Origin: an uncultured bacterium
Lineage (GTDB): Bacteria > Patescibacteriota > Minisyncoccia > Phycocordibacterales > CAIZLB01
DNA: 54,708 bases
Assembly: GCA_903848795.1 (NCBI GenBank)
Contig: CAINHC010000016.1
Span: forward strand, 1-54,708
Direction: 5' to 3'
The number at the start of each line of letters is the position of its first letter. Position 1 is the stretch's first letter. Below are positions 190 through 44,838 of this stretch, one piece after another. Below the pieces are notes generated by a model that saw only the letters and a program-made list of their open reading frames with translations, was not told where the DNA came from and made no database searches. The translations under genes were made by a program, and so were the position numbers.

Positions 190-204
190 GTCCTAACTTG
201 GGAC
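190..204. promoter_or_regulatory. Candidate TrmB-like operator GTCC-N7-GGAC
   Basis: GTCCTAACTTGGGAC, 5 nt from the trmB remnant start codon. Confidence 0.5.
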
Positions 205-335
205 GACATTATCTTCATAATTATCCTTATAATATAATATCATATATATAAATATATCAAAATATTAACCAAATGTAGGACGCATAATCGATATAGTCAT
301 ATAATTCTGTTCACATAATAATAACCAACGGAAAT

Positions 336-1421
336 ATGAAATATAAAAAGATAATTATACCAGGAGTGTTTGTTTTAGCCTTGTTACTCTACGGGCTCTT
401 TGCGGATTTTAAAAATGATAAATATGTAAAGATTGGGGTAACACTACCCTTATCTGGTAACTTGTCTATGTATGGAGAATCCATCTTGAATGGAATAAAT
501 TTGGCAATCAATGAACAAAACAATTCATCTGACCCTTTAAAAATTGATTTAATTGTTGGAAACAATGAAGGATCAGCGAATAAGGCGGTTTCTGATGTTA
601 ATAATTTCGTGTATGTTGATAAGGTATCGGCGGTTTATAATTCATTTGAGTCATTAGGTCTTGCAGCCAGAGAAATTGTCGAAAAAACTCATGTACCGAT
701 GATAATGAGTACCACATATGTTCTAACTGCAAAGGATTCTCCAAAATTTACTTTTCGTGACTATTGGAATTTTAAAAATATTGGAAATGATTTTAACATA
801 ATTTTGAAAAAGGACAGTGTATCATCAGTTAAAATTCTTGCGCAAAACGATAATTCATATAATGACTTTAAGAGCGATATAGTTCAAGATGGTGTTGAAT
901 TAGGTAGGGAAGAGAAGTTTAATTATGGAGAAAAGGATTTCAGAACCAGCCTATCTAAGCTTAATATTTCAAGTAATGATAATTTGATAGTCTATGCTTT
1001 CCCAGTTGAAGCCTCTTTAATTGTTAAACAATTAATTGAACTTGGAGTTAAACCTAATAGGTTACTAATTACTGAGGCTACGGAGTATCCAATTATGTCC
1101 GATAGTAAAAGTGTCAGTTATTTGAGCGAGATTGGAGCTTATAGTTATGTGTCTTCAGAGATTCTTGATAATCAGGATTTCGTATCAAAATACAAACAAG
1201 CTTATAAAATAAATCCTCGAGCTGATTCAGTATATGCTTATGAAGATAGTAGAATGCTAATAGGAGCTATTAAAAAGTGTGATAAATTTGAATATAAAAT
1301 TGAAGATCAAAGAGTTTGTATTAAGGATGAAATTAAAGGAGGATTCGATGAGTTTAATAATATTAATAGGAATGTACCTATCGTGAAGTTTGGTGGGGGA
1401 AGGTTCAGTGTAATTAAATAG
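336..1421 (+). CDS. LivJ/LivK-like (branched-chain amino acid type) substrate-binding protein with N-terminal membrane anchor
   Basis: KIGVTLPLSG..G..ILNGINLAINE N-terminus, EKFNYGEKDFRTSLSKL and YAYED motifs, hydrophobic N-terminal helix without lipobox Cys. Confidence 0.85.
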   Translation: MKYKKIIIPGVFVLALLLYGLFADFKNDKYVKIGVTLPLSGNLSMYGESILNGINLAINEQNNSSDPLKIDLIVGNNEGSANKAVSDVNNFVYVDKVSAVYNSFESLGLAAREIVEKTHVPMIMSTTYVLTAKDSPKFTFRDYWNFKNIGNDFNIILKKDSVSSVKILAQNDNSYNDFKSDIVQDGVELGREEKFNYGEKDFRTSLSKLNISSNDNLIVYAFPVEASLIVKQLIELGVKPNRLLITEATEYPIMSDSKSVSYLSEIGAYSYVSSEILDNQDFVSKYKQAYKINPRADSVYAYEDSRMLIGAIKKCDKFEYKIEDQRVCIKDEIKGGFDEFNNINRNVPIVKFGGGRFSVIK

Positions 1422-1443
1422 AATGTATCGAATTAAATATTGT

Positions 1444-2196
1444 TTATTCGGTCTTAACCGTAACATTATTCCAAATCAGATTGAAGAAAGAAGAAAAAAT
1501 ACTACTGAATGGCTCTGATTCTATGATTAGTGAATAAATCTTTTGATTATCCATAAAGAATAGGGCAGTCTTGTTGCCGTAGATATACATTGAGCTTTTT
1601 ATATCTTGCGGACCTTTGACCTCTCTCGTTTCTCTGAATGAATTACTTGCAAAGCCCTCGTCAATGTCACCCGGCACAAATTCAGGTCTGATGATTCTAA
1701 TATGTATATTTGACTGCTCTCTATTTTTAATCCATTCACGGCTAACTTTTGGAAAATATTTAATAAAATCTGGTCTAAGATATGCACTTATGGTTTTTAC
1801 CTTTGTAAGCTTGGAATGATCTAAAATATCTTGTAGTACCGCCTTAGATCCTTCCTTGCCAGTGTATAACTTTGCGGAGGGAACTGTTCTTCCGTCTTCA
1901 GAAAGTAACCTTAGTTCTGGAACCAATTCCTTCATTTTCTCCAGCTTCTCTTCTTGTATTTTTAATAATCTGTTAGGACTCTCCGCTCCATAGTATTTAA
2001 CTCCATTTTTCCTCCACATACTTACTAAGCCCATTCTTTGCATTGATAGTAGGGTGTCATATATGGTTGTTTTTGCAATTCCAGTGTCTTGTACAATCTG
2101 GGTAATTGAACAGTCCTTAAGTTTAAGGAGGCTTAAATAGACCTGAGATTCTTTATCGGAAAAGCCGATTTGTGATAGTTGTTGAATATAATTCAT
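1444..2196 (-). CDS. TrmB-family transcriptional regulator (wHTH plus C-terminal sensor-like domain)
   Basis: LSQIGFSDKESQVYLSLL...TGIAKTTIYDTL..M..MGLV winged HTH, AESPNRL linker, C-terminal IYGNKTALF. Confidence 0.85.
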   Translation of the reverse strand: MNYIQQLSQIGFSDKESQVYLSLLKLKDCSITQIVQDTGIAKTTIYDTLLSMQRMGLVSMWRKNGVKYYGAESPNRLLKIQEEKLEKMKELVPELRLLSEDGRTVPSAKLYTGKEGSKAVLQDILDHSKLTKVKTISAYLRPDFIKYFPKVSREWIKNREQSNIHIRIIRPEFVPGDIDEGFASNSFRETREVKGPQDIKSSMYIYGNKTALFFMDNQKIYSLIIESEPFSSIFSSFFNLIWNNVTVKTE

Positions 2197-2201
2197 AAAT
2201 G

Positions 2202-2216
2202 GTCGGAAAAAGCGAC
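2202..2216. promoter_or_regulatory. Candidate TrmB-like operator GTCG-N7-CGAC
   Basis: GTCGGAAAAAGCGAC, 5 nt from the trmB start codon, the same offset as the 190-204 site. Confidence 0.5.
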
Positions 2217-2343
2217 TAATATATTATACATTAGGAACCTTATAATACAAGCCTGTTTCTGTTTTACATAAAATATCAAGTATAAACTGCGATTAAGTTG
2301 ACAAAGTATAATATGATGTTGCCGTAATAATTTAAATAAAAAT

Positions 2344-3480
2344 ATGAAAAAACATAAAATTATATCAATAATTATAGCGGTAATACTTGTTGTGACAGTT
2401 ATATTCGTGGCTAATGGGGGTGTGGATGGTGCTAATAACTCAGATACTATCAAGATTGGCTTTATAGGTGCTCTTTCAGGAGCTGATCCTTCATATGGAG
2501 AGGCTATGAAAGGTGGGGTAGAGATTGCTGTTGAAGAAATAAATGCGGAAGGTGGAATAGGTGGTAAGAAAGTTGAAGTAATATATGAGGATGGCAAGTG
2601 TATTGATTCAAAGAGTGCTCTGTCTGCTTTTCAAAAGCTAAATGACATAGATCATGTAAAGGCAATAATCGGTGGTGGATGTTCAAATGAGGTGTCTTCT
2701 ATTTCTAAATTAGTTGATGAAAATAGAATATTTCTGATATCCTCTGGTGCATCTAGTCCCGATATCTCTGGTTCAAGCCGGTACATCTTTAGAAACTCAT
2801 CAAATGATACAGAGATGAGTAGACAGTTAGCTAATCAAATTAATAAAGATGGATTTAGGGACATCGCAATTATTTCTGATAATTCGGATTTTTCTTCAGG
2901 ATTCAGAAAATCATTTATTAATGAGTTTGATAAGATTGGCGGTGTTGTGAGTGGAGATATAATTGTTCAAGCCAATCAATCAGATTATAGATCCGATATT
3001 GCTAAACTTAAAGCTTCTAATCCAAAAGCCATATTTATTAATCCAGCTGTTCCAAAGACTGCAGGTATTATTGTAAAGCAAATACAAGAAGCTGGTTTAA
3101 CTTCTAAAATATATTTAACATACATGGCAACACCTGCATTTTTCAATATAGCAGGGGACAGTGCTGATGGTGCAACTGTAATTGATCTACCAAAGATTTC
3201 TGGTAATCTCGCAAACAATATTCTTACTAAGTTTGAAGCTAAATATGGTCACAAAACTGTTTACGAATATAATACAGTTGCGGCATATGATGCGATGATG
3301 GTGATTAAAGAATCTATATCGAAAGTCGGATATGATTCTGATAAATTATCCAATTACGTATCAACGCACAGCTTCTCCGGCGGTCTCGGTAATTTCAGCT
3401 TTAATAACCAAGGTGATGTTTCTGGAATGAAATATACATTCCAAATTATTAAAGGACATGAGTTGATGGAGATAAAATAA
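2344..3480 (+). CDS. LivJ/LivK-like substrate-binding protein with N-terminal membrane anchor
   Basis: IKIGFIGALSG, YEDGKC...GGGCS Cys pair, SSGASSPDIS, DYRSDIAKLK and AAYDA motifs. Confidence 0.9.
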   Translation: MKKHKIISIIIAVILVVTVIFVANGGVDGANNSDTIKIGFIGALSGADPSYGEAMKGGVEIAVEEINAEGGIGGKKVEVIYEDGKCIDSKSALSAFQKLNDIDHVKAIIGGGCSNEVSSISKLVDENRIFLISSGASSPDISGSSRYIFRNSSNDTEMSRQLANQINKDGFRDIAIISDNSDFSSGFRKSFINEFDKIGGVVSGDIIVQANQSDYRSDIAKLKASNPKAIFINPAVPKTAGIIVKQIQEAGLTSKIYLTYMATPAFFNIAGDSADGATVIDLPKISGNLANNILTKFEAKYGHKTVYEYNTVAAYDAMMVIKESISKVGYDSDKLSNYVSTHSFSGGLGNFSFNNQGDVSGMKYTFQIIKGHELMEIK

Positions 3481-3487
3481 GGACGAA

Positions 3488-3533
3488 ATAAAATAAACCC
3501 CGAGTTCTATTATTTACTCGGGGTTTATTTTAT
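3488..3533. terminator. Bidirectional intrinsic terminator
   Basis: Perfect 18-bp inverted repeat ATAAAATAAACCCCGAGT / ACTCGGGGTTTATTTTAT between convergent genes. Confidence 0.85.
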
Positions 3534-3552
3534 GATTTATATATGGAAATTA

Positions 3553-4602
3553 TTATTTCTGCTCCTCCAGCCACTTCCACACCGCCTCATTTAACATGAT
3601 TGTCTCAACATAAATTGTTGCTCTCACACGGTCTGCGTCTTTGTAGTAGTTAAGAAGTGAATCAACTTCCTTCTTGATTGCTTCCTCAGATACCTCAATC
3701 TTTTCCTCAATCGCAATCTTGTTTAGAAGAAGTTGTGTCTTTGCTCTTTTTTCTGCATCTGGTCTCCATTCTTTCTTAATGTCTTCTTGGGTTTTTCCAA
3801 TATGCTTCAAATAGTCCTCGATTGAAAGTCCCATTTCTGAAATATTTGATGACATCTCCGCAATCATTTTCTCAAGCTCTGATGCAATTAGCATCTCAGG
3901 CATTTCAATCTCAGAGTCTTTGATAATATCTTCCATTATCTTCAGTCTCTTCTTCTCCTTTTCCTTGCGAGTTTTGTCTGATGTAATTCCTTCCTTAACT
4001 CTTTCTTTAAATTCCTCCACTGTCTTTAGGTCCCCAAATTTCTTTATAAAATCTTCATTCACTTCTGGAAGATCCAGTTCTCCATGATTATGGTCGTGAT
4101 CATCTGGATTCTTTGCGTGATGTTCATCATGAGCAACTTGTTTTCTAAGTTCTTCAACCGCCTCATCAACTTCTTTGTCAGTTACTGTAACTTCAACTTT
4201 CTCAGCCATTATTTTTCCTGCTGACTTTTTGTAATTTCCAATCTTAACTTCAGGCATCAGTGCAGTTTTAATCTTGAATCCAAAAGCTTCACCTGGTGCA
4301 ACCTTTGTGATTGTAACAGCGGGGGAGCCAACAGCTTTGATATCAAGAGAAGAAACTATTTCTCCATAATGATGCTCAAGAGCTAATCTTCCAGCCTCTT
4401 CTGTTATTGTCATTTCTCCTAGTTTGTCTACAAGTTGTTTTTCTGGAATATGACCTGGTCTAAAGCCATCGATTTTGATTTCTTTGCTAAAGCTTTTAAG
4501 TGCTTTGGCTCTAAACTCTGCAACGGTTTCTGCTTTGATTTCACCTTCAACTTCGAATTCTGAATTTGGAAGTTTTTGTTTGTTAGTTATTGTAAATGAC
4601 AT
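3553..4602 (-). CDS. tig: Trigger factor, short form apparently lacking most of the FKBP PPIase domain
   Basis: KIDGFRPGHIP ribosome-binding loop, C-terminal chaperone domain (A.KR.K..LLL.KIA.EEKIEVS), 349 aa. Confidence 0.9.
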   Translation of the reverse strand: MSFTITNKQKLPNSEFEVEGEIKAETVAEFRAKALKSFSKEIKIDGFRPGHIPEKQLVDKLGEMTITEEAGRLALEHHYGEIVSSLDIKAVGSPAVTITKVAPGEAFGFKIKTALMPEVKIGNYKKSAGKIMAEKVEVTVTDKEVDEAVEELRKQVAHDEHHAKNPDDHDHNHGELDLPEVNEDFIKKFGDLKTVEEFKERVKEGITSDKTRKEKEKKRLKIMEDIIKDSEIEMPEMLIASELEKMIAEMSSNISEMGLSIEDYLKHIGKTQEDIKKEWRPDAEKRAKTQLLLNKIAIEEKIEVSEEAIKKEVDSLLNYYKDADRVRATIYVETIMLNEAVWKWLEEQK

Positions 4603-4644
4603 TTTATTTAATTTATTCTGAATAATTTATTACACCATAAAAAT

Positions 4645-5202
4645 TTAACCTTGCACGGGGCCTGACCCCTTACCATACTTCTCTTCATAAAGCTTCTTGG
4701 CTCTATCAAATGCCTTCTTGGCTTCATCTGCTCCGCCTATGCTATCAATTGTAACAATTTTCTTTTGCATTTGCTTGTATGTCAAAAAGAAGTGTTCGAT
4801 CTCTTCGATTGTGTGAGGATTAACATCTGACAAATCGTGAACATTATTCCATCTTGGGTCACCAACTGGAACAGCAACGATTTTTGCATCTGAATCTCCA
4901 TCGTCAACCATGTTTAAAATTGCAACAGGGCGAATACGCGCCATCACTCCTGGAATAAGGGCGTGGGTTGTTAGAATTACAGTATCAAGTGGGTCACCAT
5001 CATCCCAAAGTGTTCTTGGAATAAAGCCATAATCAAATGGATAATCTTGTGTGGTATAGCCAACTCTATCAAGTGAGATTAATCCTGTTTTTTTATCTAT
5101 TTCGTATTTGTTTTTTGATCCCTTGTTGATTTCAATGATCGTTATCATTTCCTCAGGAGTTCCGGAATCTATATCGTGCCATAAGTTCATTCTTGTCATC
5201 AT
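4645..5202 (-). CDS. ppa: Family I inorganic pyrophosphatase
   Basis: EINKGSKNKYEIDK, YPFDYGFIPRT, DGDPLD and DSDAK motifs. Confidence 0.95.
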   Translation of the reverse strand: MMTRMNLWHDIDSGTPEEMITIIEINKGSKNKYEIDKKTGLISLDRVGYTTQDYPFDYGFIPRTLWDDGDPLDTVILTTHALIPGVMARIRPVAILNMVDDGDSDAKIVAVPVGDPRWNNVHDLSDVNPHTIEEIEHFFLTYKQMQKKIVTIDSIGGADEAKKAFDRAKKLYEEKYGKGSGPVQG

Positions 5203-5327
5203 TTTGTCATTAATTAGTTTTTTATAATTTTAGTTGTTTAGGTATTTTCTGAAATAAGTAGCAAAGGGACTCTCCACAGGTTCATGTTAGAACCACTTTT
5301 GTTTCTATTTGGAAAGTTGGTTCTTAT

Positions 5328-6805: not shown

Positions 6806-6823
6806 ATAACTTGAGACCTCATA

Positions 6824-8390: not shown

Positions 8391-10273
8391 ATGAATTCAT
8401 CTAACGTGGATATGGAAAATAAACAGAGTAAGGTTGTTAAAAATTCCAAAAAAACCAAAAAGACACCCGAAAAGAAGGAAAAAGGCGCTTCACTGCTTGT
8501 TAATTTTGGTAGGGTAATGAAACTTGTCTGGGCTTATGACAATATGACAAGAAGTTTTTGCCATTGGAATTTTCCTTAATTATACTTGTGTCAGTCTTGC
8601 CAATTGTCCTCTCTTGGTTTTCTGCCTTATTTGTTAACAAAATAACATCCGGAGAGCTGACGACTATATTTGATCCGGGTCTAATTGGAATTGTCTCTGT
8701 TTATTTAGCTCTCCCTTTGATAATAGAATTGGCTGATGTTTGGTATGAATATTTTGATAATATGTTTTATGTATTTTTTGCACAACATATTAACTTGATG
8801 TTTATTGATAAGAAAAACGAAATTGATGTGCAGACATTCGAAAATCTTGAGTTTAATAATCTTATGCTCAAGGTTAATGAAAATACAAGTAAAATGGTTC
8901 ATTTTTGTGACTACTCATTCTTTTTGGTTGGTAAAATCGCAATACTTTTTTCTGTAGTATTTATTTTGTTTAATTACGAATGGTGGTTTGTTCCAGTTTT
9001 ACTTTTAGCCATTATTCCAAACTTGATTTTGCAAATAAAATTTGGAGAAAGAGTATATGGTATTTGGGACGCCAAGGCTGAGGTTAGACGTAAATATAAT
9101 CTTTTTACGTGGTATTTTTCTGATATTGCATCTTTGACAGAGATAAAAATATTTAAAAATAAAAGTTATTTTAAGAAAAATATCATTGGTTTACTAAATA
9201 TTTTTAATTCTGAGATCAACAATAATGAAAACAGGAGGACAAAATATAGAAATCTGACGACACTGCTTGAGATGGCTGTTGGTGCTGTGATTGTGTTTTA
9301 TTTAATGAATAGTGTTATAGAAAAGACCTTAGCAGTTGGAACATTTATATTCCTTCTGGGTAGAATGAATGATGTCAGAGATTCATTGACTTCTATTTTT
9401 AGAAACTTCTCTGTGCTTATGGGTGACAATAAGTTTATTAGTGATGTCTTTAAATTTTTATCCACCGAAAAGGTCGTTAAAGGAGGAGACAAAATAATAG
9501 AGGAGGGAACCCCTGAAATCGAATTTTCAAATGTATCTTTTGCCTACCCTGATACTAAAAAGAATGTATTAAATGACTTTAATTTTAAAATAAAAGCAGG
9601 GGAAAAGATTGCCATTGTTGGAGTCAATGGAGCTGGAAAGACAACTCTCACAAAATTGATAATGAGATTTTATGATGTAACAAAAGGGTCAATATCGATT
9701 GGAGGGAATAACATAAAAGATATTGATCTGTCTGATTATTATCATAGAGTAGGGCATCTTTCTCAAAACTATGCGCACTATAAATTGCCGGTTAATGAAA
9801 TTATTGCACTTGGAAATACAGAGGTGACACTAGACATTGATAGGGTGATTGAATCCGCCAAAAAATCCGGTGCACATGAGTTTATCTCTGCCTGGGAAAA
9901 GGGGTATGATACTCAGCTTGGAAAAGAATTTGATGATGGAGTCGAACCTTCTGTTGGTCAATGGCAAAAACTTGCGCTCGCTAGAATGTTTTACAAGAAT
10001 CCTCAGATTTGGATATTGGATGAGCCAACAGCTTCGATTGACTCTGTTGCGGAAATGGAAATATTCCAAGAGCTAGAAAATCTACCAGAAGATAAGACTG
10101 TCATACTAATTTCTCACAGATTTAACACGGTTAAAAATGCTAACAGAATAATGGTGATTGAAGATGGGGAAGTGAAGGAATTTGATAGTCATAATAAATT
10201 GATGAAAATTAAAAACGGAATTTATAAGAAATTATTTGAGATGCAAAAGAAGTCTTATGAGACGGTGTCTTAA
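8391..10273 (+). pseudogene. ABC exporter (permease plus ATPase), frameshifted near the 5' end
   Basis: ORFs 8391-8579 and 8558-10273 join in frame if one copy of the TATGACAA tandem (8535-8550) is removed. Walker A GVNGAGKTT, signature PSVGQ, Walker B ILDEPT. Confidence 0.75.
8535..8550 (+). repeat. 8-bp tandem duplication (TATGACAA)x2
   Basis: Read directly from the sequence. Confidence 0.95.
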
Positions 10274-18351: not shown

Positions 18352-18466
18352 TTTCATGGTCACAAATTTTGACCATGAGCGCGAACGCCGTTAAAATTTG
18401 TAAAATTAAATTGGAAGCCCCAACTAACTTGTGACTCCCAATTTGTTTTTTAGACCTATGTGTTTT

Positions 18467-26099: not shown

Positions 26100-26861
26100 T
26101 TATAACCCCTCCCAAATACCTTTAAATAACTCTCTCATGTTGTGTGCTAGAGTTGCATCGTATATTTGGACAAAGTAATGTGGTTTTTGATTTGTAACCG
26201 CAAAGATCAAGTAATCTCCAGCTACCCAGGTTGATCCAGTAAAATCACCTTCTCTATCCCAAAACTTCACAAGACGTCTATCAAATTGCTTTGATCTGAT
26301 TATATTTTCATATTTCGATTCATTTGTTAGTAAACGAACAGAAAGTTTCTTTGGTGCACAATTTTTCCAGAACCACTCTATCCAGGTGGCATAATGCTTG
26401 GAAAAACTAGGATCTTGGAATCCCCACCAAATTGTATCCTTTTTCATTATACTATCAGCCCAGATTGGTGATTGCTTGTAATAAAAAGTGCCCATATCCT
26501 CTTCATACACAAAGGTTATTTTTGGAATGGAATAACGTGTATTTTTTGTCATGGATTTTAACTCCTCTATGGCTTTATCTATAATCCCCTTCTTCCTCTG
26601 TAAATCCTCCTCCTCCTTTCTACTTATATCCTTAAGGTCATCTGGTGGAAGTGCTACTAGATATTTTTGTTTACCAGCTAAATCCTCAACAATAAGGCCC
26701 TTTTCTACTAGTTCTTGAGCGATTATATACGCAGTTGTACGATTGATGCCCGCAACTTTTGCTGCTCTGGCCGGAGTTATTTTACCTTGTTCTAATATGG
26801 CTAGGTAGAGCTCTATTTCCTTTGGTTTAAATCCTAATTCAGAAAGTAGTTTGTTTATCAT
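26100..26861 (-). CDS. TrmB-family transcriptional regulator
   Basis: LSELGFKPKEIELYLAIL...AGINRTTAYIIAQELVEKGLI wHTH. Confidence 0.85.
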   Translation of the reverse strand: MINKLLSELGFKPKEIELYLAILEQGKITPARAAKVAGINRTTAYIIAQELVEKGLIVEDLAGKQKYLVALPPDDLKDISRKEEEDLQRKKGIIDKAIEELKSMTKNTRYSIPKITFVYEEDMGTFYYKQSPIWADSIMKKDTIWWGFQDPSFSKHYATWIEWFWKNCAPKKLSVRLLTNESKYENIIRSKQFDRRLVKFWDREGDFTGSTWVAGDYLIFAVTNQKPHYFVQIYDATLAHNMRELFKGIWEGL

Positions 26862-26868
26862 GTCAAAT

Positions 26869-26897
26869 ATTATAGCATGTTGTCATAAAATTATCAA
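26869..26897 (-). promoter_or_regulatory. Leaderless promoter of trmB (26861)
   Basis: TTGATA-N17-TATAAT with extended TG, then 7 nt to the ATG. Confidence 0.7.
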
Positions 26898-27022
26898 CAG
26901 ACAAATAGCGCTACAAATATACATATGCTCTTAATAAACTTGGCTTGTGTAACCATAAATATTGCAGAAAATGTAATTTGACATATTATGATATTCGTTA
27001 TCAAAATATAAATATTTTAAAA

Positions 27023-28138
27023 ATGAGCAATAAAACAAAGAAATATATCAGTATTGTGGGCCTAATTGTCATATTAGTCTTGGTTTTTGTATCAATGAAC
27101 CGCAATCAAAACAGCGGTTCAGAGCCAAAAACTATTAAAATCGGGGTAATTGCCTCAATGACAGGGGCTTATTCAAATGTTGGTGAGAATAGCAAAAAAG
27201 GTATAGATCTGGCTGTGAGCGAAGTAAATAAAAAGGGTGGAGTTTTGGGCAGACCAATCGAGGTTGTCTATAAAGAATACCCTGGAGAGGATCAGAAAGT
27301 TGCTGTATCCGCATTTTATGAACTTAATAGTTCTGGTATAAATTTAATCATAGGACCAAGTCTCACCACCACAGGCTCCGCGCTAGCCCCGCTCGCTGTT
27401 CCAAATAATAGTCTATTGATTTCTCCTGCTATTGGCTCTGAGAAATTTGCAGAAGCAAACGAAAATACATTTAGTGTATGGCCTCCTGATAAGGCGGGTG
27501 TTTCAAAGCTGGCGGAATTTGTATTCGAAAAAGGCTTGAGAAGGGTGGCTGTTATTGGCTCACAACAAGAGTGGGAGAGACAAATGGCCGTGTATTTTAA
27601 GGAAGATTTTGAAAAGCTTGGTGAAACAATCACGGATATAGAATTACCTCTGATGACCGACAAAGACCTTAGAACTCAGTCTATTAAGATAAAAGAATCA
27701 AATCCTGAGGCTGTAATCTTTACTAATTATGGTGAAACTAGCTATGCAGCAAAAAGAATCCGTGAAGTAGGAATTGAGTCACCCTTCTTTTCTGTTCTTT
27801 TGGATGAGGAAGGAATAAAAAATGCTAATGGAACGCTTGAGGGTACAATATATGTAACTTCGTACACCCCAACTCCAGAGTTTGTATCTGCTTACAAGGG
27901 CTATTATAATACCGAGCCACAGTTCCCAGCTGACACATCCTATGATTCTGTTATGGTCCTTGCAAAGGCAATAGAGAAGGCCAAAAGTACAGATACTGCT
28001 AAGGTTACAGAGAGTCTGAGTGAGATTTCTTCCTTCAGTGGAGCCTCAGGGGTATTTGGATTTGATGCAAGCGGGGCGGCGGTAAAAACCCCGGCCTACT
28101 ACATAGTCAAAAACGGAAAGTCTGAGCTTTACAAATAA
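27023..28138 (+). CDS. LivJ/LivK-like substrate-binding protein with N-terminal membrane anchor
   Basis: IKIGVIASMTG, GIDLAVSEVN..GGVLGRPIEVV, DLRTQSIKIK, SYDSV. Start set at ATG 27023. Confidence 0.9.
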   Translation: MSNKTKKYISIVGLIVILVLVFVSMNRNQNSGSEPKTIKIGVIASMTGAYSNVGENSKKGIDLAVSEVNKKGGVLGRPIEVVYKEYPGEDQKVAVSAFYELNSSGINLIIGPSLTTTGSALAPLAVPNNSLLISPAIGSEKFAEANENTFSVWPPDKAGVSKLAEFVFEKGLRRVAVIGSQQEWERQMAVYFKEDFEKLGETITDIELPLMTDKDLRTQSIKIKESNPEAVIFTNYGETSYAAKRIREVGIESPFFSVLLDEEGIKNANGTLEGTIYVTSYTPTPEFVSAYKGYYNTEPQFPADTSYDSVMVLAKAIEKAKSTDTAKVTESLSEISSFSGASGVFGFDASGAAVKTPAYYIVKNGKSELYK

Positions 28139-38545: not shown

Positions 38546-38547
38546 AG

Positions 38548-38575
38548 TTGACATTACGCCACCTTCTGATATTAT
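38548..38575 (+). promoter_or_regulatory. tuf promoter
   Basis: TTGACA-N16-TATTAT with extended TG. Confidence 0.7.
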
Positions 38576-38603
38576 CCAGTATGACGCCAACTGGCGGTTT
38601 TTT

Positions 38604-38786
38604 ATCCCAACTCTTCTTTTTGATTTAAGGCAAGTATTAAAGAATCAAACATAATAAAGCTATTTACAAGAAGAAGCACTGGGGATGAAATTTAAGAAAA
38701 TTTATTAATTTTAATTTTTATTAATTAGTAAATATTGGGCTTGCGGAGATATCCGCGCCTTGTGGAGATATCCATAAATAAAGCCC
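38604..38786 (+). promoter_or_regulatory. Structured tuf leader with twin GGA-GATA-TCC hairpins
   Basis: GGGCTT/AAGCCC closes GCGGAGATATCCGC and GTGGAGATATCCAT, with a long imperfect hairpin at 38604-38686. Confidence 0.5.
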
Positions 38787-38813
38787 TGTATTTATATAAT
38801 TATCAACAAATAT

Positions 38814-40007
38814 ATGGCAGTAGAAGCTTTTGATCGTTCAAAACCTCACTTAAACGTAGGTACAATTGGTCACGTTGATCACGGAAAGACTACCTTAACA
38901 GCCGCAATCCTTAATGTTCTTCACAGAGCAGGTATGCAGGCGACAATTAAGGATGTTAGTGAAATTGATAAGGCTCCAGAAGAGAAGGCTCGTGGAATTA
39001 CAATTTCATTGTCACACAGTGAATACACAACAAATGTAAGACACTATGCTCACATTGATGCCCCAGGTCACGCCGACTACATCAAGAACATGATTACTGG
39101 TGCCGCTCAAATGGACGGTGCTATCCTAGTTGTTGCTGCAACAGACGGACCAATGCCACAAACACGTGAGCACGTTCTTCTTGCAAAGCAAGTTGGAGTT
39201 CCAAAGATAATCGTATTCATGAACAAGTGTGACATGGTAGATGACGCAGACATGCTTGATCTAGTTGAGGCAGAAATCAGAGAATTGCTAGAAAAGAATG
39301 GATTTGACGCAGATGCTCCAATTATCAGAGGTTCAGCGCTTAAGGCACTTGAAGCACCTGACAATACAGATCAATGGTCAAAGAAAGTTCTAGAACTTGC
39401 TGACGCTCTTGATACATATCTTCCACAACCTGTGAGAGAGACTGACAAGCCATTCCTTATGCCTATTGAGGACATCTTCTCAATTGAAGGAAGAGGAACA
39501 GTGGTAACAGGAAAGATTGAAAAGGGTATGATTAAGATTGGTGAAGAAGTAGAAATCGTTGGAATCAAGGATACTCAAAAGACAGTTGTTACAGGAATCG
39601 AAATGTTCAACAAGCAACTAACAGAGGGTATGGCTGGAGACAACGCTGGTATACTTCTCCGATCTGTTAAGAAAGATGATCTTACAAGAGGTCAAGTTCT
39701 TTCAAAGCCAGGAACAGTAAAGCCACACACAGATTTTGAAGCAGAAGTCTATATCCTTAAGAAGGAAGAAGGCGGTCGACACACTCCATTCTTCTCAGGT
39801 TACAAACCACAGTTCTACGTACGTACAACTGACGTTACAGGAGAGGTTACATTAAAAGAAGGTGTAGACATGGTTATGCCAGGTGACACAGTTACATTCA
39901 AAGTTAAATTGGTAGCCCCAATCGCGCTTGAAGATAATACAAGATTCGCTATTCGCGAGGGAGGTAGAACTGTTGGAGCTGGAGTTGTAACTAAAATCGT
40001 AGCCTAA
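38814..40007 (+). CDS. tuf: Elongation factor Tu
   Basis: [37 protein letters not shown]. Confidence 0.98.
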
Positions 40008-40063
40008 CTTTTAGTTAACGGAAGATTGAATTTTACTCAGAAAACATTAAAAAAAACGCCATT

Positions 40064-40417
40064 ATGGCAACAAAAGAAGCACATAAAAAGAAAACTGCAA
40101 AAGAAGATAGCGTATCAAGATTACGTATTCGTGTTCGCGCATACGAGTCAAAGATCATTGATGCATCCATTAAACAAATTATGGATACAGCTCTAAGATT
40201 TGATGCTACTATCGTAGGTCCTATTCCTCTTCCAACAGAAATCAAGAAGTATACAGTAAATCGTTCATCGTTTATTTTCAAAAATTCACGTGAGCAATTT
40301 GAGATGAGAATACACAAGCGTCTGATTGATATAATCAATCCAAATGCAAAGGTAATCGAAGCTCTAACCAACTTGAGTCTGCCATCAGGAGTGAATATTG
40401 ACGTAAAAATGATGTAG
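40064..40417 (+). CDS. rpsJ: 30S ribosomal protein S10
   Basis: GPIPLPT, SREQFEMRIHKRLIDI. Confidence 0.97.
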   Translation: MATKEAHKKKTAKEDSVSRLRIRVRAYESKIIDASIKQIMDTALRFDATIVGPIPLPTEIKKYTVNRSSFIFKNSREQFEMRIHKRLIDIINPNAKVIEALTNLSLPSGVNIDVKMM

Positions 40418-40451
40418 TTAAACTTTCTTCAGTGAATTCCTAAAAACTACC

Positions 40452-41051
40452 ATGAAATTTATTCTCGGAACAAAACAGAATATGACCCAGCTTTTCGACG
40501 AAGAAGGCAGAGTTCATCCTGTGACAGTTCTTAAAACCTCTCCGATGGTTGTAACGCAAGTTAAGACCGAAGGCAAAGATGGTTACGATGCTGTTCAAGT
40601 TGGATTTGGGACAAGAAGTCCTCGTCGTATAAACAAGGCACAAAAAGGGCAAATGAAAGATCTCGGCAGTTTCCAATATCTAAGAGAAATTTCTGGTGTA
40701 AAGGACTCATCAATTGGTGAGAACATTAATCCAGAACTTACTCCTGGGGAAAAAGTGGAGGTGTCAGCTATTTCAAAATCAAAAGGATTTCAGGGTGTTG
40801 TAAAACGCCATGGATTTCACGGTGGACCACGTTCTCACGGTCAAAAGCACAGTGAGCGCGAGCCAGGTTCTATCGGCGCCGGCGGATACCAACGTGTATT
40901 TAAAGGTACACGTATGGCAGGACGTATGGGAGGGGACCGAGTAACCGTTAAGAATCTAACTGTTATTTCTTACGATAAAACAACAGGGGAATTATGCATC
41001 AGGGGTGCAATCCCAGGTCGAAGAGGCACATTAGTAGAAGTGCGCGCCTAG
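40452..41051 (+). CDS. rplC: 50S ribosomal protein L3
   Basis: SKGFQGVVKRHGF, GTRMAGRMG. Confidence 0.97.
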   Translation: MKFILGTKQNMTQLFDEEGRVHPVTVLKTSPMVVTQVKTEGKDGYDAVQVGFGTRSPRRINKAQKGQMKDLGSFQYLREISGVKDSSIGENINPELTPGEKVEVSAISKSKGFQGVVKRHGFHGGPRSHGQKHSEREPGSIGAGGYQRVFKGTRMAGRMGGDRVTVKNLTVISYDKTTGELCIRGAIPGRRGTLVEVRA

Positions 41052-41081
41052 CACAATTATCTTAAACCTTAAATTAAATTT

Positions 41082-41834
41082 ATGGCACAGACAAAATCTA
41101 AAAGAGCAGCAAGTAAAGTCGAAAAGACTCCAAAAATTGCTAAGACAAAGAAAGAAAAAGTAGAAGTTTCTCTAGAAGGAACAATATACGATGTGGGAGG
41201 TAATAGTGCAGGCACAGTAGCTCTTCCAAAAGAAATCTTCGGAATTCCTTGGAATGGTGATCTTGTTGCACAAGTTGTAAACTCGATACAGTCATCTGCA
41301 AGACAACCAGTTGCACATACAAAAGATAGATCAGAAGTTGCCGGTGGCGGTAAAAAGCCATGGAAGCAAAAGGGAACAGGACGTGCTCGTCACGGTTCAT
41401 CTCGTTCTCCTATCTGGGTAGGTGGAGGTGTTGCTCACGGTCCTCGTAACGAGAAAGATTACGACAGAAAGGTAAACAAGAAAATGAAAGCTAAGGCACT
41501 ATTTACGATTCTTTCCGCAAAGTGGAGAGATGGTGAAATCCTCTTCGTAAAAAATCTTGAACTAGTTGAACCTAAGACAAAGCTAGCAATAGCTATGATC
41601 GATAGACTCTCAAAAGTTACAGGCTTTGATAAGTTAGCAACAAAGCATAAGAATGCTGCTCTTATCACAGTTCCTGCACTTGAAGAGAATGTAAAGAGAG
41701 GTTTCTCTAACCTAAAGAGTATGGAGGTAACAGAACTTCGAAATATTAATCCAATTGCGCTTCTTCAATATAAGTACTTGGTCATTGCTTCACCTGAAGA
41801 TGCGTTTGTTACTCTTACTTCAAAAATAAAGTAA
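41082..41834 (+). CDS. rplD: 50S ribosomal protein L4
   Basis: KKPWKQKGTGRARHGS, Lys-rich N-terminal extension. Confidence 0.97.
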   Translation: MAQTKSKRAASKVEKTPKIAKTKKEKVEVSLEGTIYDVGGNSAGTVALPKEIFGIPWNGDLVAQVVNSIQSSARQPVAHTKDRSEVAGGGKKPWKQKGTGRARHGSSRSPIWVGGGVAHGPRNEKDYDRKVNKKMKAKALFTILSAKWRDGEILFVKNLELVEPKTKLAIAMIDRLSKVTGFDKLATKHKNAALITVPALEENVKRGFSNLKSMEVTELRNINPIALLQYKYLVIASPEDAFVTLTSKIK

Positions 41835-41853
41835 CCAACATAATATCAAATAT

Positions 41854-42150
41854 ATGACAAAGATATCAATACAGAAGCATCAATTGGAAGTTATTAAGAG
41901 CCCTCGTATTACTGAGAAGGCAACTGTAAAGGCGGGTGAAAACCAATACGTCTTTGAAGTTACTGACAGGTCTACTAAGGCATCTATCGCAAAAGCTATC
42001 GAAGCACTTTATAAGGTAAAACCTGTTAAAGTTAATATAGTGAATATTCCTGCAAAAACAGTGTTTGTTCGTGGAAAGGTCGGCAAGAAAAGCGCCATTA
42101 AGAAAGCCTATGTTTTCTTAAAGAAAGGCGACAAGATCGACTTAGCATAA
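41854..42150 (+). CDS. rplW: 50S ribosomal protein L23
   Basis: PRITEKA, KKAYVFLKKG. Confidence 0.96.
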   Translation: MTKISIQKHQLEVIKSPRITEKATVKAGENQYVFEVTDRSTKASIAKAIEALYKVKPVKVNIVNIPAKTVFVRGKVGKKSAIKKAYVFLKKGDKIDLA

Positions 42151-42180
42151 TCAGCGTGATACGCAAAGTAAAATAAATAT

Positions 42181-43023
42181 ATGAAAAGATTTAAACCAAC
42201 AAGCCCCTCACGCCGAAACATGGCTATAGTCAACTATGCACAGATTCTTACTACTGACGAGCCATATAAGCCCCTTACAAACGGGTTTAAGCGTGGATCG
42301 GGACGTAATAACACTGGACGTATTACAACTAGACACAAGGGAGGAGGTCACAAGAGACTTTATCGTCAAATTGACTTCAAGTATGACAAAAGAGATATTC
42401 CTGCAAAGATAGACACAATTGAATACGATCCAAACCGTACTTCATTTATTTCTCTCGTAACTTATGCCGATGGAGAAAAGCGTTATGTTATTCTTCCAAA
42501 GACACTCAAAGTTGGAGATAAATTTATTGTAGGCGAGAAGGTTGAGGTAAAGCCAGGTAACAGACTTCCATTAAAGAACATTCCTGTTGGAACATTCATT
42601 TACAACATCGAATTGAAATTTGAAGGAGGATCTAAGCTTGTTCGTTCAGCTGGATCTTTTGCTGAAGTGATTGCTCATGACGGGGGCTATGCTCTTGTTA
42701 AGATGCCATCAACTGAAGTTAGAAAGGTTATAGAAACAGCATGGGCATCAATCGGAGAAGTATCAAATGATGAGAATCGTTTGCAGAATATTGGAAAGGC
42801 TGGAGCAAGCAGACACCGTGGTATCAGACCAACTGTCCGTGGTACTGCTATGAACCCAGTTGATCACCCACACGGAGGAGGAGAAGGTAGACAAGGAAGA
42901 GGACGCAGACGCGCAATTTCTATCTACGGAAAGCCAACCGGAAAGGGACAAAAATCAAGACGCGCAAAGAAGTATTCAAACAAACATATTGTTTCAAGAA
43001 GAAAGGTTGGAAAGAGAAGATAA
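42181..43023 (+). CDS. rplB: 50S ribosomal protein L2
   Basis: IEYDPNRT, VRGTAMNPVDHPHGGGEG. Confidence 0.98.
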   Translation: MKRFKPTSPSRRNMAIVNYAQILTTDEPYKPLTNGFKRGSGRNNTGRITTRHKGGGHKRLYRQIDFKYDKRDIPAKIDTIEYDPNRTSFISLVTYADGEKRYVILPKTLKVGDKFIVGEKVEVKPGNRLPLKNIPVGTFIYNIELKFEGGSKLVRSAGSFAEVIAHDGGYALVKMPSTEVRKVIETAWASIGEVSNDENRLQNIGKAGASRHRGIRPTVRGTAMNPVDHPHGGGEGRQGRGRRRAISIYGKPTGKGQKSRRAKKYSNKHIVSRRKVGKRR

Positions 43024-43080
43024 TCTTTTATCCACCCGACTCTCAAAACAAGAACTTGTGGCTTTGGAGCTGGTCTTATA

Positions 43081-43112
43081 CACAAAACCCCGCAGAAGTG
43101 CGGGGTTTTGTG
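43081..43112 (+). terminator. Terminator after rplB
   Basis: CACAAAACCCCGCA-GAAG-TGCGGGGTTTTGTG. Confidence 0.85.
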
Positions 43113-43141
43113 TTGGATATCTTTTGGTGTATAATTTAAAC

Positions 43142-43900
43142 ATGAGTTTTAGATACAATCCAATACAAAGATGGGCAAAGACGATATATAGAAAGTTTAA
43201 CCCAATACCTGGTTCTCCTTGGACCAAAGGTCATGTTGATGACATTTGCGCGATTAATTTGGTTCCACCAGAGACATTAAAAACTTTTTTTACAAATTGT
43301 ATTGAAAGACTTCAAGCCATTAAAGGAAAAGAGATTGGAGACTATCTTGAGTTTGGTGTCTTCAATGGTTCATCCTTAGGAAGCGCTTATCTAACTGCAA
43401 AAAAGATGGATCTTAAATCTATGAAGTTTTTTGGGTTTGATTCATTTGAAGGTCTACCTACAGGAACAAACGAGGAGCATGATATTCTGCAAAAAGGATT
43501 TTACTGTTGTCCATTTAATAAAACAAAGGAGTGTCTGGAAAGAAGGGGTGTTGATTCAGAAGATGTTACTTGGATTAAAGGTGTATACAATGAGACGCTA
43601 AATGATGAAACATTTAAGAATATTGGTTATCCAAAAATCGGAATCGTATTTATTGATTGCGACACATACAGTTCATCCAAAAATGTTCTTGATTTTCTTG
43701 CCCCGTTAATAGTGGAGCCCGCAATTATTTGTCTTGATGATTGGAAGCTTTATGATATGGATATAAAAGGAACTGGTGAATATAAATCTTTCAATGAATT
43801 TTTAGAAAGAAATAGACATATTAAAGCTAAGGAAATCAAATCGTACAATAGAAAATCAAAAACTTTTATTTTGATGCCAAAAGTTACTTCAAGGGATTAG
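43142..43900 (+). CDS. TylF/MycF/NovP-like O-methyltransferase
   Basis: DYLEFGVFNGSS, GFDSFEGLP, WIKGVYNETL, FIDCDTYSS, DDW. ATG at 43142 lies 6 nt after TATAAT. Confidence 0.8.
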   Translation: MSFRYNPIQRWAKTIYRKFNPIPGSPWTKGHVDDICAINLVPPETLKTFFTNCIERLQAIKGKEIGDYLEFGVFNGSSLGSAYLTAKKMDLKSMKFFGFDSFEGLPTGTNEEHDILQKGFYCCPFNKTKECLERRGVDSEDVTWIKGVYNETLNDETFKNIGYPKIGIVFIDCDTYSSSKNVLDFLAPLIVEPAIICLDDWKLYDMDIKGTGEYKSFNEFLERNRHIKAKEIKSYNRKSKTFILMPKVTSRD

Positions 43901-43919
43901 TGTTTTTAAATAGAACGGG

Positions 43920-44669
43920 TCATTCTTGTTGCGCCGACTGCCAAATTATCTCAAACTGTTCTTCTTGTAATTGTATTATTCCAGGATTTTCTATGACGAT
44001 TGTTAAAATAGGTGAGACCATTTGCGTAATGATAACTTTGTTTTTTAATATAACTAGGTTACTAATTAGATCTACATCTTTTGGTAAATATCTAATATCC
44101 CAATTAATTCTCTTTCCGTATTCTTTATATTTCTCGGCTTCAGGTGTTCTTTGAAGTAAGGTCCTTAGAGACAAATGTAGGTGACTTCTTTTCTCCACCC
44201 AGTCTTCGAAGAAATCTTTATCTATTTTCATGAACTTTTCAATATCAGAAATAATTAGGTATTTATCGCCATATCTCAGCTCTTTCAATATATCCGTGTA
44301 GACCTTTTTGAAGCCGGAGATCCCCTCGTAATATTTAATAAAATTGAGACCGGTGTGTATTTGGTATTTGCTAGATAGCTCGGGGATAATTTTTGATAGG
44401 TTATCTTTTTTAAGCTCGTAAGTCTTCATTAGATTCTCTGGGTTGGATGCAACAAATAGCTTTTTGAGACCATTAATTTCAATACTGATTAGCCCCTTAA
44501 TTTTAAGTGCTTCTATTACGGAGTAGGCGGTAGTTCTGATGACCCCCGCTCCTTTGGCAATATTGATGGCTGTTGCAGGCCCGAGGCTTAGGTTTGCCAG
44601 ATAAATTTTGGCTTCGTTTTCCGTTAGGCCAATGTCTTTGATTATTTCTATGGTTCTATTAGTTAGCAT
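43920..44669 (-). CDS. TrmB-family transcriptional regulator
   Basis: DIGLTENEAKIYLANL...AGVIRTTAYSVIEALKIKGLI. Start at ATG 44669 chosen by alignment to paralogs, GTG 44741 is an alternative. Confidence 0.85.
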   Translation of the reverse strand: MLTNRTIEIIKDIGLTENEAKIYLANLSLGPATAINIAKGAGVIRTTAYSVIEALKIKGLISIEINGLKKLFVASNPENLMKTYELKKDNLSKIIPELSSKYQIHTGLNFIKYYEGISGFKKVYTDILKELRYGDKYLIISDIEKFMKIDKDFFEDWVEKRSHLHLSLRTLLQRTPEAEKYKEYGKRINWDIRYLPKDVDLISNLVILKNKVIITQMVSPILTIVIENPGIIQLQEEQFEIIWQSAQQE

Positions 44670-44768
44670 GTTTGTTGAATGTTTATATTGTTTTGTATAA
44701 AAGTGTCGATTACTTCGTCGTCTAAATATACCATATACCACTTATATAATATAGCACTTCTAGATACG

Positions 44769-44785
44769 TGTCGACAAAACAGACA
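44769..44785. promoter_or_regulatory. Candidate TrmB-like operator TGTC-N9-GACA
   Basis: TGTCGACAAAACAGACA, with one-mismatch copies at 44705-44719 and 44800-44814. Confidence 0.5.
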
Positions 44786-44838
44786 TAAACTATCTTTAGT
44801 TCTATAATTACGACACATTAATAATAAAAAGCAAACAT

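What the first reader, a model, noticed from the sequence alone, without database searches (positions are those of the whole stretch)
190..44814. Candidate operator GTC-N9-GAC shared by three of the four module spacers
Seen in sequence: GTCC-TAACTTG-GGAC (190-204) and GTCG-GAAAAAG-CGAC (2202-2216) each lie exactly 5 nt from their trmB start codon. TGTC-GACAAAACA-GACA (44769-44785) has one-mismatch copies at 44705-44719 and at 44800-44814, the latter overlapping a TATAAT. My rough estimate is one chance hit per about 9 kb if GC is about 36 percent, so three perfect hits in four short spacers is unlikely, although the motif was defined after the fact. The fourth base pair differs between modules (CC/GG versus CG/CG), which suggests paralog-specific recognition. 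The 26862-27022 spacer has no clear copy. The motif differs from the archaeal TGM (TATCAC-N5-GTGATA).
Basis: partly seen in the sequence, partly recalled or inferred. Interest (0 to 1): 0.7.

Follow-up and report, generated by a model that had tools for sequence, protein, structure and literature searches.

The report
Shared operator of CPR TrmB-like regulators
A short mirror-image DNA word (GTC, nine or ten bases, GAC) sits on the promoters of a large family of TrmB-like regulator genes in these ultra-small Paceibacteria. It is most likely the site where each regulator binds to control its own gene, which would give a first readable piece of gene control in a group of bacteria that cannot yet be grown.

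Summary
All quoted sequences are at the stated coordinates. Within the window alone the case is modest: 3 perfect hits in 628 nt of spacer against 0.06 expected, and 0.25% of random sets of four intergenic regions do as well.

Comparative data decide it.
- In 73 divergent trmB/binding-protein spacers from this genome and relatives, GTC-N9-GAC occurs 24 times and GTC-N10-GAC 11 times. Other spacings occur 0-5 times, and 1.4 is expected.
- 19 of 44 independent paralogue clusters carry a perfect site.
- 44 of 114 trmB upstream regions carry one, against 34 of 891 for other genes (p = 5e-25).
- The motif follows trmB, not the binding-protein gene.

The site either covers the predicted trmB transcription start or includes its -35 box. 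Site subtype (spacing, fourth base, position) tracks the regulator's recognition-helix subtype.

The regulators are TrmBL2-like (model pLDDT 92.5). The best reading is a self-regulating operator with paralogue-specific inner bases. Control of the binding-protein genes is supported only where a second site exists, as in module 4.

Spacer 3 has a related TGTTG-N12-CAACA dyad instead. No binding has been measured. The motif differs from all published TrmB sites.

The parts
1..108 (.). End of an insertion sequence, with terminal inverted repeat GGGGGTGTCAAGCGGATATGCCAG, that interrupts trmB1. This is context, not part of the operator.
   Evidence: The same end lies at the ends of contigs C24, C25 and C19, and the other end at C3, C22, C14, C20 and C8. 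The 8-bp duplication TAGATAAA (109-116) equals the reverse complement of TTTATCTA at C3:139-146.
109..184 (-). The 5' 76 nt of trmB1 (MQTIKKLIKYGFNEAEAVVYLDVLS...). The rest of the gene lies on contig C3 from position 147.
   Evidence: The G001 orthologue reads MQTIKKLIKYGFNEAEAVIYLDVLSNMDSS.
190..204 (.). Site GTCC-TAACTTG-GGAC, 5 nt before the trmB1 ATG.
   Evidence: The G001 orthologue has GTCCTAAATTTGGAC at the same offset, with arms kept and centre changed.
208..213 (-). Predicted -10 of trmB1 (GATAAT on the minus strand), 3 nt upstream of the site. This is inferred.
   Evidence: row GTCCAAATTTAGGAC (G001 orthologue of trmB1) and the general geometry. No transcript data are available.
336..1421 (+). 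Binding protein 1 (Peripla_BP_6, LivJ-like).
1444..2196 (-). trmB2, a TrmBL2-like regulator of 250 aa.
   Evidence: Pfam PF01978. PDB profile matches to 3QPH and 5BPD. Model with pLDDT 92.5 and Foldseek E 5e-13 to TrmBL2.
2202..2216 (.). Site GTCG-GAAAAAG-CGAC, 5 nt before the trmB2 ATG.
   Evidence: It is identical in G001 and G004. It is also identical, with 16 further bases nearly so, in front of a G017 (other genus) trmB paralogue of a different <55%-identity cluster, while the rest of the spacer has diverged.
2223..2228 (-). Predicted -10 of trmB2 (TATAAT on the minus strand, preceded by TG), 6 nt upstream of the site. The site would then span about +1 to +15. This is inferred.
   Evidence: The block lies inside the stretch conserved between genera.
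2344..3480 (+). Binding protein 2 (Peripla_BP_6).
26100..26861 (-). trmB3.
26878..26899 (.). Dyad TGTTG-N12-CAACA over the predicted trmB3 -35 and promoter spacer (TTGATA-17-TATAAT, 26897 down to 26869). It stands in place of GTC-N9-GAC in this module.
   Evidence: It is conserved in six trmB3 relatives of 38-49% identity. The promoter scan is.
27023..28138 (+). Binding protein 3 (Peripla_BP_6).
43920..44669 (-). trmB4. The ATG at 44669 fits the family alignment better than the GTG at 44741.
44705..44719 (.). Variant site GTCGATTACTTCGTC (GTC-N9-GTC), 36 nt from the trmB4 ATG.
   Evidence: Kept as GTCGAT...TTCGTC in the G004 and G003 orthologues, with a changed centre in G003.
44769..44785 (.). 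Perfect site TGTC-GACAAAACA-GACA. It spans two predicted back-to-back -35 boxes: TCGACA for trmB4 and CAGACA for binding protein 4.
   Evidence: All 17 bases are identical in G000, G004 and G003 while the flanks vary. The promoter scan is.
44800..44814 (.). One-mismatch copy TTCTATAATTACGAC over the predicted -10 (TATAAT, 44803-44808) of binding protein 4. Its status is doubtful.
   Evidence: The block is conserved, but GAC is AAC in G003. The conservation may be due to the -10 box alone.
44839..45996 (+). Binding protein 4 (Peripla_BP_6).

Best explanation
GTC-N9-GAC, with GTC-N10-GAC as a second allowed form, is the core of the operator of a lineage-specific expansion of TrmBL2-like regulators in Paceibacteria (CPR).

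Shown by computation: the element is real, it is specific to trmB promoters, and it has a fixed geometry.

Inferred mechanism:
1. A dimer of the adjacent TrmB-like protein binds the dyad with its two winged-helix domains. The conserved start of the recognition helix ([KR]-x-T/S-x-Y) would read GTC. Variable neighbouring residues would read the fourth and fifth bases and set the 9 or 10 spacing.
2. In modules 1 and 2 of the window the site begins 3-6 nt after the predicted -10 box and ends 5 nt before the ATG. A bound protein would therefore sit on the transcription start and shut off its own gene (negative autoregulation).
3. In another subfamily one half of the site is the -35 box itself.
4. 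In module 4 the perfect site covers both back-to-back -35 boxes, so it could switch the regulator gene and the binding-protein gene together.
5. A ligand sensed by the PLD-like C-terminal domain would release the protein. This last step is pure inference.
For: - Spacing-specific enrichment: in 73 spacers, N9 occurs 24 times and N10 11 times, other spacings 0-5 times, with 1.4 expected from the local GTC and GAC counts. The reversed order GAC-Nk-GTC occurs 0-4 times.
- Independence: 12 (N9) and 8 (N10) of 44 clusters below 55% identity carry a perfect site, against 0.66 expected.
- Specificity: 44 of 114 trmB upstream regions against 34 of 891 other upstream regions in the same DNA, odds ratio 15.8, p = 5e-25. 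trmB genes without a divergent binding-protein gene keep the site. Binding-protein genes without trmB lack it.
- Taxonomic reach: in other families of the class, N9 occurs 8 times and N10 6 times, against 1.07 expected in 59 regions.
- Geometry: the site starts 0-11 nt after a -10-like hexamer and ends 3-17 nt before the ATG, or its trmB-proximal half is TTGAC placed 16-17 nt before a -10 box.
- Footprints: the site and the adjacent -10 block are identical between genera while the rest of the spacer diverged. The 17-mer of module 4 is invariant in three genomes.
- Covariation with the protein: R-P-T helices go with GTCA...TTGAC (12 of 13) and R-T-T helices with GTC[C/G/T] (15 of 15). LKRTTVYNI[LI]P goes with GTCTA-N6-TAGAC in three genomes from two families. 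A Mantel test gives r = 0.40 for the DNA-binding domain and 0.22 for the C-terminal domain.
- The proteins are true TrmB-family members with a dimer-forming coiled coil.
- Published TrmB regulators bind palindromes at or after the promoter, some with variable spacing, and some are autoregulated (PMC4158304).
Against: - No binding, transcript start or expression data exist.
- Only about 40% of trmB genes have a perfect site. Module 3 of the window and seven other modules of this genome have none.
- The covariation between protein and site is partly what common descent alone would give.
- In the -35 subclass one GAC is explained by the promoter itself.
- In most modules there is no second site near the binding-protein promoter, so control of that gene is not shown.
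- The closest solved relative, TrmBL2, is a non-specific chromatin protein.
Confidence: 0.78

Rival explanations
1. The motif is a by-product of promoter architecture. GAC and GTC are the cores of TTGACA -35 boxes of two back-to-back promoters held at a fixed distance, and no dedicated protein reads the dyad.
For: In module 4 the two halves coincide with predicted -35 boxes of both genes. In the R-P-T subfamily the trmB-proximal half is TTGAC with a -10 box 16-17 nt downstream. Distal GTCAA halves in other families fit the divergent gene's -35 box.
Against: Eight of 13 non-redundant N9 sites have no TTGAC or GTCAA half (GTCC..GGAC, GTCG..CGAC, GTCAT..ATGAC). These lie 3-17 nt from the ATG or over it, where no -35 box can serve trmB. 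The expectation of 1.4 already uses the local GTC and GAC counts. Other promoters in the same DNA show no N9 or N10 peak. The 5 bases between the two boxes of module 4 are also invariant.
Confidence: 0.08
2. The dyad acts as RNA: a small 5'-terminal hairpin of the trmB mRNA that affects stability or ribosome access.
For: In modules 1 and 2 the site would make up most of a roughly 20-nt leader. The fourth pair is complementary in many sites (C-G, G-C, A-T). The bare sites fold with a mean of -2.4 kcal/mol.
Against: Only 3 bp are constant, with loops of 5-10 nt. Many sites are not complementary beyond 3 bp, for example GTCACAAAACAGGAC and GTCGACAAAACAGAC. Sites that overlap the -35 box, or whose left half precedes the predicted start (the class at distance -5), would not be transcribed whole. 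N9 and N10 alternation with a protein-subtype link fits a protein reader better.
Confidence: 0.05
3. The sites are read by one shared regulator, a single master TrmB paralogue or another factor that recognises GTC-N9/10-GAC. It would co-ordinate all trmB genes, rather than each paralogue reading its own promoter.
For: Only GTC and GAC are common to all sites. Many paralogues coexist in one genome, at least 13 in G000.
Against: Inner bases, spacing and position are kept among orthologues and differ between co-resident paralogues, tracking the neighbouring protein's helix type. Genomes of the class with a single TrmB-like gene still have the site in front of it.
Confidence: 0.07
4. The three hits in the window arose by chance, from a motif defined after the fact.
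For: The motif was defined after looking. Genome-wide, spacing 9 is not enriched (98 hits against 85 expected).
Against.
Confidence: 0.02

Closest known systems
Halobacterium salinarum TrmB (VNG1451C) site TACT-N7-8-GAGTA
   Same: It lies downstream of the promoter for repression or upstream for activation (PMC4158304).
   Different: The half-site is different (TACT against GTC). It works with an archaeal BRE/TATA promoter. It belongs to one global regulator with a sugar-binding domain, not to many paralogues each at its own promoter.
Thermococcales glycolytic motif TATCAC-N5-GTGATA (TrmBL1/Tgr), and TACT-N3-AGTA (Pyrococcus and Thermococcus TrmB at malE)
   Same: These are inverted repeats read by TrmB-family proteins. 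They overlap the transcription start when repressing, and they control binding-protein-dependent ABC uptake genes. TrmBL1 is autoregulated.
   Different: The sequence and spacing are unrelated, so the sequence test is not met. Those regulators carry a full sugar-binding domain, whereas the ones here have the short TrmBL2-like architecture.
TrmBL2 (PDB 5BPD, 5BOX, 5BQT)
   Same: It is the best full-length match by profile (E 5e-11) and by fold (E 5e-13). It shares the winged helix, the long coiled coil and the PLD-like C-terminal domain, and it also lacks a sugar-binding subdomain.
   Different: TrmBL2 is described as a non-specific chromatin protein. The proteins here are only about 15% identical to it and are associated with a specific dyad at their own promoters.
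   Same: TGTCA-N7-TGACA is GTC-N9-GAC with A/T as the fourth pair. That note gave the same reading, a self-operator on trmB promoters.
   Different: It is an unchecked AI note on another genome. The sites in this window belong to the GTCC and GTCG subtypes placed at the transcription start, not on the -35 box.
Mycobacterium smegmatis MmtA1, a PF01978-only bacterial factor with site ACAATTGT
   Same: It is a bacterial protein with a TrmB-type winged helix that binds a palindrome in its own promoter (bioRxiv 10.1101/2025.04.03.647061).
   Different: It has no C-terminal domain, an unrelated site, and acts as an activator.

Membership tests
TrmB family of transcription regulators | N-terminal winged helix-turn-helix domain PF01978 above the curated cut-off | tested here: met
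   TrmB2 scores 45.4 bits, TrmB3 42.4 and TrmB4 51.0, against a cut-off of 25.6.
TrmB family of transcription regulators | Coiled-coil dimerisation helix followed by a C-terminal domain homologous to that of TrmB and TrmBL2 | tested here: met
   A profile of 41 paralogues matches TrmBL2 over positions 9-247 (E 5e-11) and TrmB 3QPH over 4-154 (E 2e-12). The model has pLDDT 92.5 with a helix at 74-99. Foldseek gives TrmBL2 E 5e-13 and 3QPH E 2.5e-9. The C-terminal domain also matches the PLD-fold protein NucT.
TrmB family of transcription regulators | Sugar-binding C-terminal subdomain, as in the sugar-sensing TrmB and TrmBL1 | tested here: not met
   The proteins are about 250 aa, against 342 aa for 3QPH. 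The profile match to 3QPH ends at residue 153, and the architecture equals TrmBL2. They belong to the family but not to the sugar-sensing subgroup.
TrmB family of transcription regulators | Sequence-specific binding to a palindromic operator, and release by an effector | not testable with these tools
   Only computational association is available.
Thermococcales glycolytic motif (TGM) and TACT-type TrmB sites | Sequence TATCAC-N5-GTGATA, TACT-N3-AGTA or TACT-N7-8-GAGTA | tested here: not met
   The enriched element is GTC-N9/10-GAC. The published motifs are taken from PMC4158304.
Autoregulatory bacterial operator | A dyad placed on the regulator's own core promoter or transcription start, conserved among orthologues | tested here: met
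   Conservation is. The promoter positions are predictions, not mapped starts.
Mobile hairpin mini-repeat of Parcubacteria (scan note e1-822972) | A stem of 8-10 bp around a CACAATTTGTG core, present in many near-identical copies | tested here: not met
   The trmB sites have 3-5 bp arms and differ from one another. Only the window hit at 18359 and the copies on contig C17 are of the hairpin type.

The most novel reading that the evidence does not exclude
The TrmBL2-like paralogues of Paceibacteria form an orthogonal set of one-component switches with a simple, readable recognition code. The first residues of the recognition helix (R-P-T, R-T-T, R-P-S and others) would set the fourth and fifth bases, the 9 or 10 spacing, and even the position of the operator on the promoter. 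Each switch would independently gate one orphan LivJ-like binding protein. All of these binding proteins would feed one or two shared Liv-type membrane translocators: the genome has 2 permease genes against at least 16 binding-protein genes. This would be a nutrient-sensing array that lets a 1-Mb symbiont choose which scavenging receptor to display.
Probability: 0.3. Interest if true: 0.75.

Novelty: new variant of a known kind. Interest (0 to 1): 0.55.

Why it matters
Almost nothing is known about how CPR/Patescibacteria regulate genes, because they are uncultured and have few transcription factors. This finding offers:
- a predicted operator with clear rules, shared by dozens of paralogues across a class;
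- a ready set of protein and DNA pairs that can be tested in vitro or in E. coli reporters without growing the organism;
- a natural series for studying how a winged-helix family diversifies its DNA specificity.

It also extends the TrmB family, so far studied in Archaea, to a bacterial expansion with a new site. The family and the logic (a palindromic self-operator) are ordinary, which limits the surprise.

Tried and rejected
- Further regulon members in this genome: intergenic GTC-N9-GAC numbers 25-26 against about 11 expected. The excess is explained by the three module sites, by five or six hairpin mini-repeats (contig C17, C29, window 18359), and by tRNA and rRNA sequences. No convincing extra target was found, and there is no site before the Liv permease genes.
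- Other window hits:
  - 8526 lies 17 nt before an ABC ATPase ORF.
  - 35214 lies between convergent genes.
  - 46476 is intergenic.
  - 22747, 32721 and 37947 are coding or lie at a start codon.
  None lies before a trmB gene, and their conservation in relatives was not examined.
- The terminator call at 2200-2218 was rejected, because no plus-strand gene ends upstream of it.
- k-mer enrichment in trmB upstream regions mostly returned generic promoter words. Only TGTTGTC stood out, in 13 of 108 regions against 8 of 1298.
- RNA folding energy of the bare sites was uninformative.
- Literature: no paper in the held library combines TrmB with 'candidate phyla radiation', and the top-ranked papers of a search combining TrmB with Patescibacteria, Parcubacteria or Saccharibacteria did not mention TrmB.
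- Several first attempts at Pfam calls failed because of frame errors in my coordinates.

Full report
**What is in the window**

The window is a whole contig (C16) of a 1.02-Mb, 36.8% GC genome in 52 contigs. Earlier notes of this scan place the organism in the Paceibacteria (CPR).

Four head-to-head gene pairs are present. Each pair has a TrmB-family regulator (PF01978) on the minus strand and a Peripla_BP_6 (LivJ-like) binding protein on the plus strand.

So are the two 5-nt distances to the start codons.

One detail differs. trmB1 is cut after 76 nt by an insertion sequence whose end fills window 1-108. The gene continues at contig C3:147 behind an 8-bp target duplication. C3, the insertion sequence and C16 therefore form one tandem run of four modules.

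**Is it more than chance?**

Genome-wide, GTC-N9-GAC is at background. There are 98 hits against 85 expected, and spacing 9 is no commoner than other spacings.

In the four spacers (628 nt), 0.06 hits are expected and 3 are seen. I compared all 1344 palindromes with 3-base arms and gaps of 0-20. GTC/9 is the best, with nominal p = 1.3e-5. Only 0.25% of 2000 random sets of four intergenic regions of this genome reach that value. This is suggestive, but the motif was chosen after looking.

**The comparative test**

The genome holds many more such regulators and binding proteins. Its relatives hold over a hundred.

From fetched loci I called 117 TrmB-like and 89 binding-protein genes with family HMMs. 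I defined 73 divergent spacers with a mean length of 146 nt.

- Perfect GTC-N9-GAC occurs 24 times and GTC-N10-GAC 11 times.
- Every other spacing from 0 to 20 occurs 0-5 times.
- The local counts of GTC and GAC predict 1.4 per spacing.
- The reversed arrangement GAC-Nk-GTC occurs 0-4 times.

I then collapsed regulators into 44 clusters below 55% identity. Of these, 12 carry N9, 8 carry N10 and 19 carry either, against 0.66 expected for N9.

Regulator genes that have no divergent binding-protein gene still carry the site 5-31 nt before their ATG. Binding-protein genes without a regulator do not carry it.

Against all other genes in the same DNA, the counts are 44 of 114 regions versus 34 of 891 (odds ratio 15.8, p = 5e-25).

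In 59 homologues from other families of the class, N9 occurs 8 times and N10 6 times, against 1.07 expected.

The element is therefore real. It is tied to the trmB promoter and is older than this family of organisms.

**Anatomy**

Reading the trmB strand, two arrangements recur.

1. The site starts 0-11 nt after a -10-like hexamer and ends 3-17 nt before the ATG. It would then span the transcription start and most of a short leader.
   - Modules 1 and 2 of the window are of this type.
   - For trmB2, TG-TATAAT lies at 2223-2230 (minus strand), then 6 nt, then the site at 2216 down to 2202, then 5 nt, then the ATG.
   - This block, site plus -10 box, is nearly identical in front of a regulator of a different paralogue cluster in another genus. 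The rest of that spacer has diverged.
2. The site lies 30-34 nt before the ATG. Its trmB-proximal half is TTGAC(A/T), followed 16-17 nt later by a -10 box. The site thus includes the -35 box of a nearly leaderless gene.

Module 4 is a third case.
- The perfect 17-mer at 44769-44785 spans two predicted back-to-back -35 boxes.
- It is invariant in three genomes.
- The variant GTCGAT...TTCGTC (44705-44719) is also kept.
- The 44800-44814 copy is not kept as a motif.

Five of the 44 clusters have a second perfect site 29-57 nt before the binding-protein ATG.

Module 3 has no GTC-N9-GAC. Its six relatives of 38-49% identity all share TGTTG-N12-CAACA over the -35 box and promoter spacer (26878-26899 in the window). 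TGTTG and CAACA are also the preferred outer flanks of the main motif.

**Who reads it?**

The regulators are true TrmB-family proteins with the short TrmBL2 architecture.
- A profile of 41 paralogues matches TrmBL2 over its full length and TrmB 3QPH over the N-terminal half.
- The TrmB2 model (pLDDT 92.5) shows a winged helix, a long helix at 74-99 and a PLD-like C-terminal domain.
- Its best fold matches are TrmBL2 and then TrmB.

Site subtype follows the regulator's recognition helix.

| Recognition helix | Site subtype | Count |
|---|---|---|
| R-P-T | GTCA...TTGAC, almost all on the -35 box | 12 of 13 |
| R-T-T | GTC followed by C, G or T, mostly next to the transcription start | 15 of 15 |
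| LKRTTVYNI[LI]P | GTCTA-N6-TAGAC (N10) | 3 genomes from 2 families |
| IPRPSVYDNLK | GTCGTCGAA..TCGAC (N10) | 2 genomes |

Site distance correlates with distance in the DNA-binding domain (Mantel r = 0.40, p = 2e-4). The correlation with the C-terminal domain is weaker (r = 0.22).

This is what cognate recognition predicts. Shared ancestry contributes to it, and it is not proof.

**Mechanism proposed**

A dimer of each regulator binds its own dyad and blocks RNA polymerase at its own promoter. Where a second site or a shared -35 site exists, it blocks the binding-protein promoter as well. An unknown ligand would relieve this.

- Shown: the element, its specificity, its geometry and its covariation with the protein.
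- Inferred: binding, repression, the ligand response, and any control of the binding-protein genes in single-site modules.

**Rivals**

- A pure promoter by-product fails for most sites. They have no TTGAC half and lie where no -35 box could serve trmB.
- An RNA hairpin is unlikely. Only 3 bp are constant, and several sites would not be transcribed whole.
- A single master regulator is hard to reconcile with the subtype-specific inner bases. Genomes that have a single TrmB-like gene still carry the site.

**Comparison with what is known**

Published TrmB sites are TACT-N3-AGTA, TATCAC-N5-GTGATA, TACT-N7-8-GAGTA and ATAATACT repeats, all in Archaea (PMC4158304). None resembles GTC-N9/10-GAC. 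The variable spacing and the placement at the promoter are shared features.

I found no paper that links TrmB to CPR bacteria.

Within this scan, an earlier unchecked note (e1-1543131) reported TGTCA-N7-TGACA at TrmB-like promoters of another CPR genome. That is the A/T subtype of the same motif. My result was reached before reading that note and agrees with it.

**Verdict**

This is a new operator variant for a known regulator family. Interest is moderate to good, mainly because it makes CPR gene regulation directly testable.

Noticed in passing
window 1-116, and contig C3:1-146: An insertion sequence with terminal inverted repeat GGGGGTGTCAAGCGGATATGCCAG and an 8-bp duplication TTTATCTA interrupts trmB1 after codon 25. 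Its ends lie at the ends of at least nine contigs, so it is a main cause of assembly breaks. It shows that C3 and C16 are neighbours. Binding protein 1 would then lack its regulator, if this insertion is fixed in the population.
   Followed up: partly
window 18354-18378: CATGGTCACAAATTTTGACCATG is an 8-bp-stem hairpin between convergent genes. It matches GTC-N9-GAC only by accident. It resembles the CACAATTTGTG hairpin mini-repeats that lie in and after an ORF6N/RhuM-like gene on contig C17 (16470-17520), in six or more copies.
   Followed up: partly
genome G000: C22:22727-23539 and C6:8844-9656: The genome has only two LivH/M-type permease genes (PF02653), against at least 16 Peripla_BP_6 binding-protein genes. 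One permease gene lies directly beside a trmB module. Many binding proteins probably share one or two translocators.
   Followed up: partly
window 226-235 and 2238-2247: CCTTATAATA occurs at almost the same offset (20 and 21 nt after the site) in spacers 1 and 2. The two regulators are only 33% identical. It could be a second conserved promoter element, or a -10 box for the binding-protein gene.
   Followed up: no
window 8526-8540: GTCTGGGCTTATGAC lies 17 nt before an ORF with an ABC ATPase domain (8558-10273, TTG start) and after a Fic-domain gene. Its conservation was not examined.
   Followed up: no
contig C3:3980-4140 (module C3_b): The spacer has a CTCCT-GTAA-AGGAG hairpin about 22 nt from the trmB ATG instead of a GTC dyad. 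Several other modules of this genome (C22_b, C6) also lack any recognisable dyad.
   Followed up: no
relatives G001-G024 compared with other families of the class: TrmB-like genes number 8-14 per genome in several members of this organism's family. Most other Paceibacteria families have 1-3 above the threshold used. This points to a lineage-specific expansion.
   Followed up: partly
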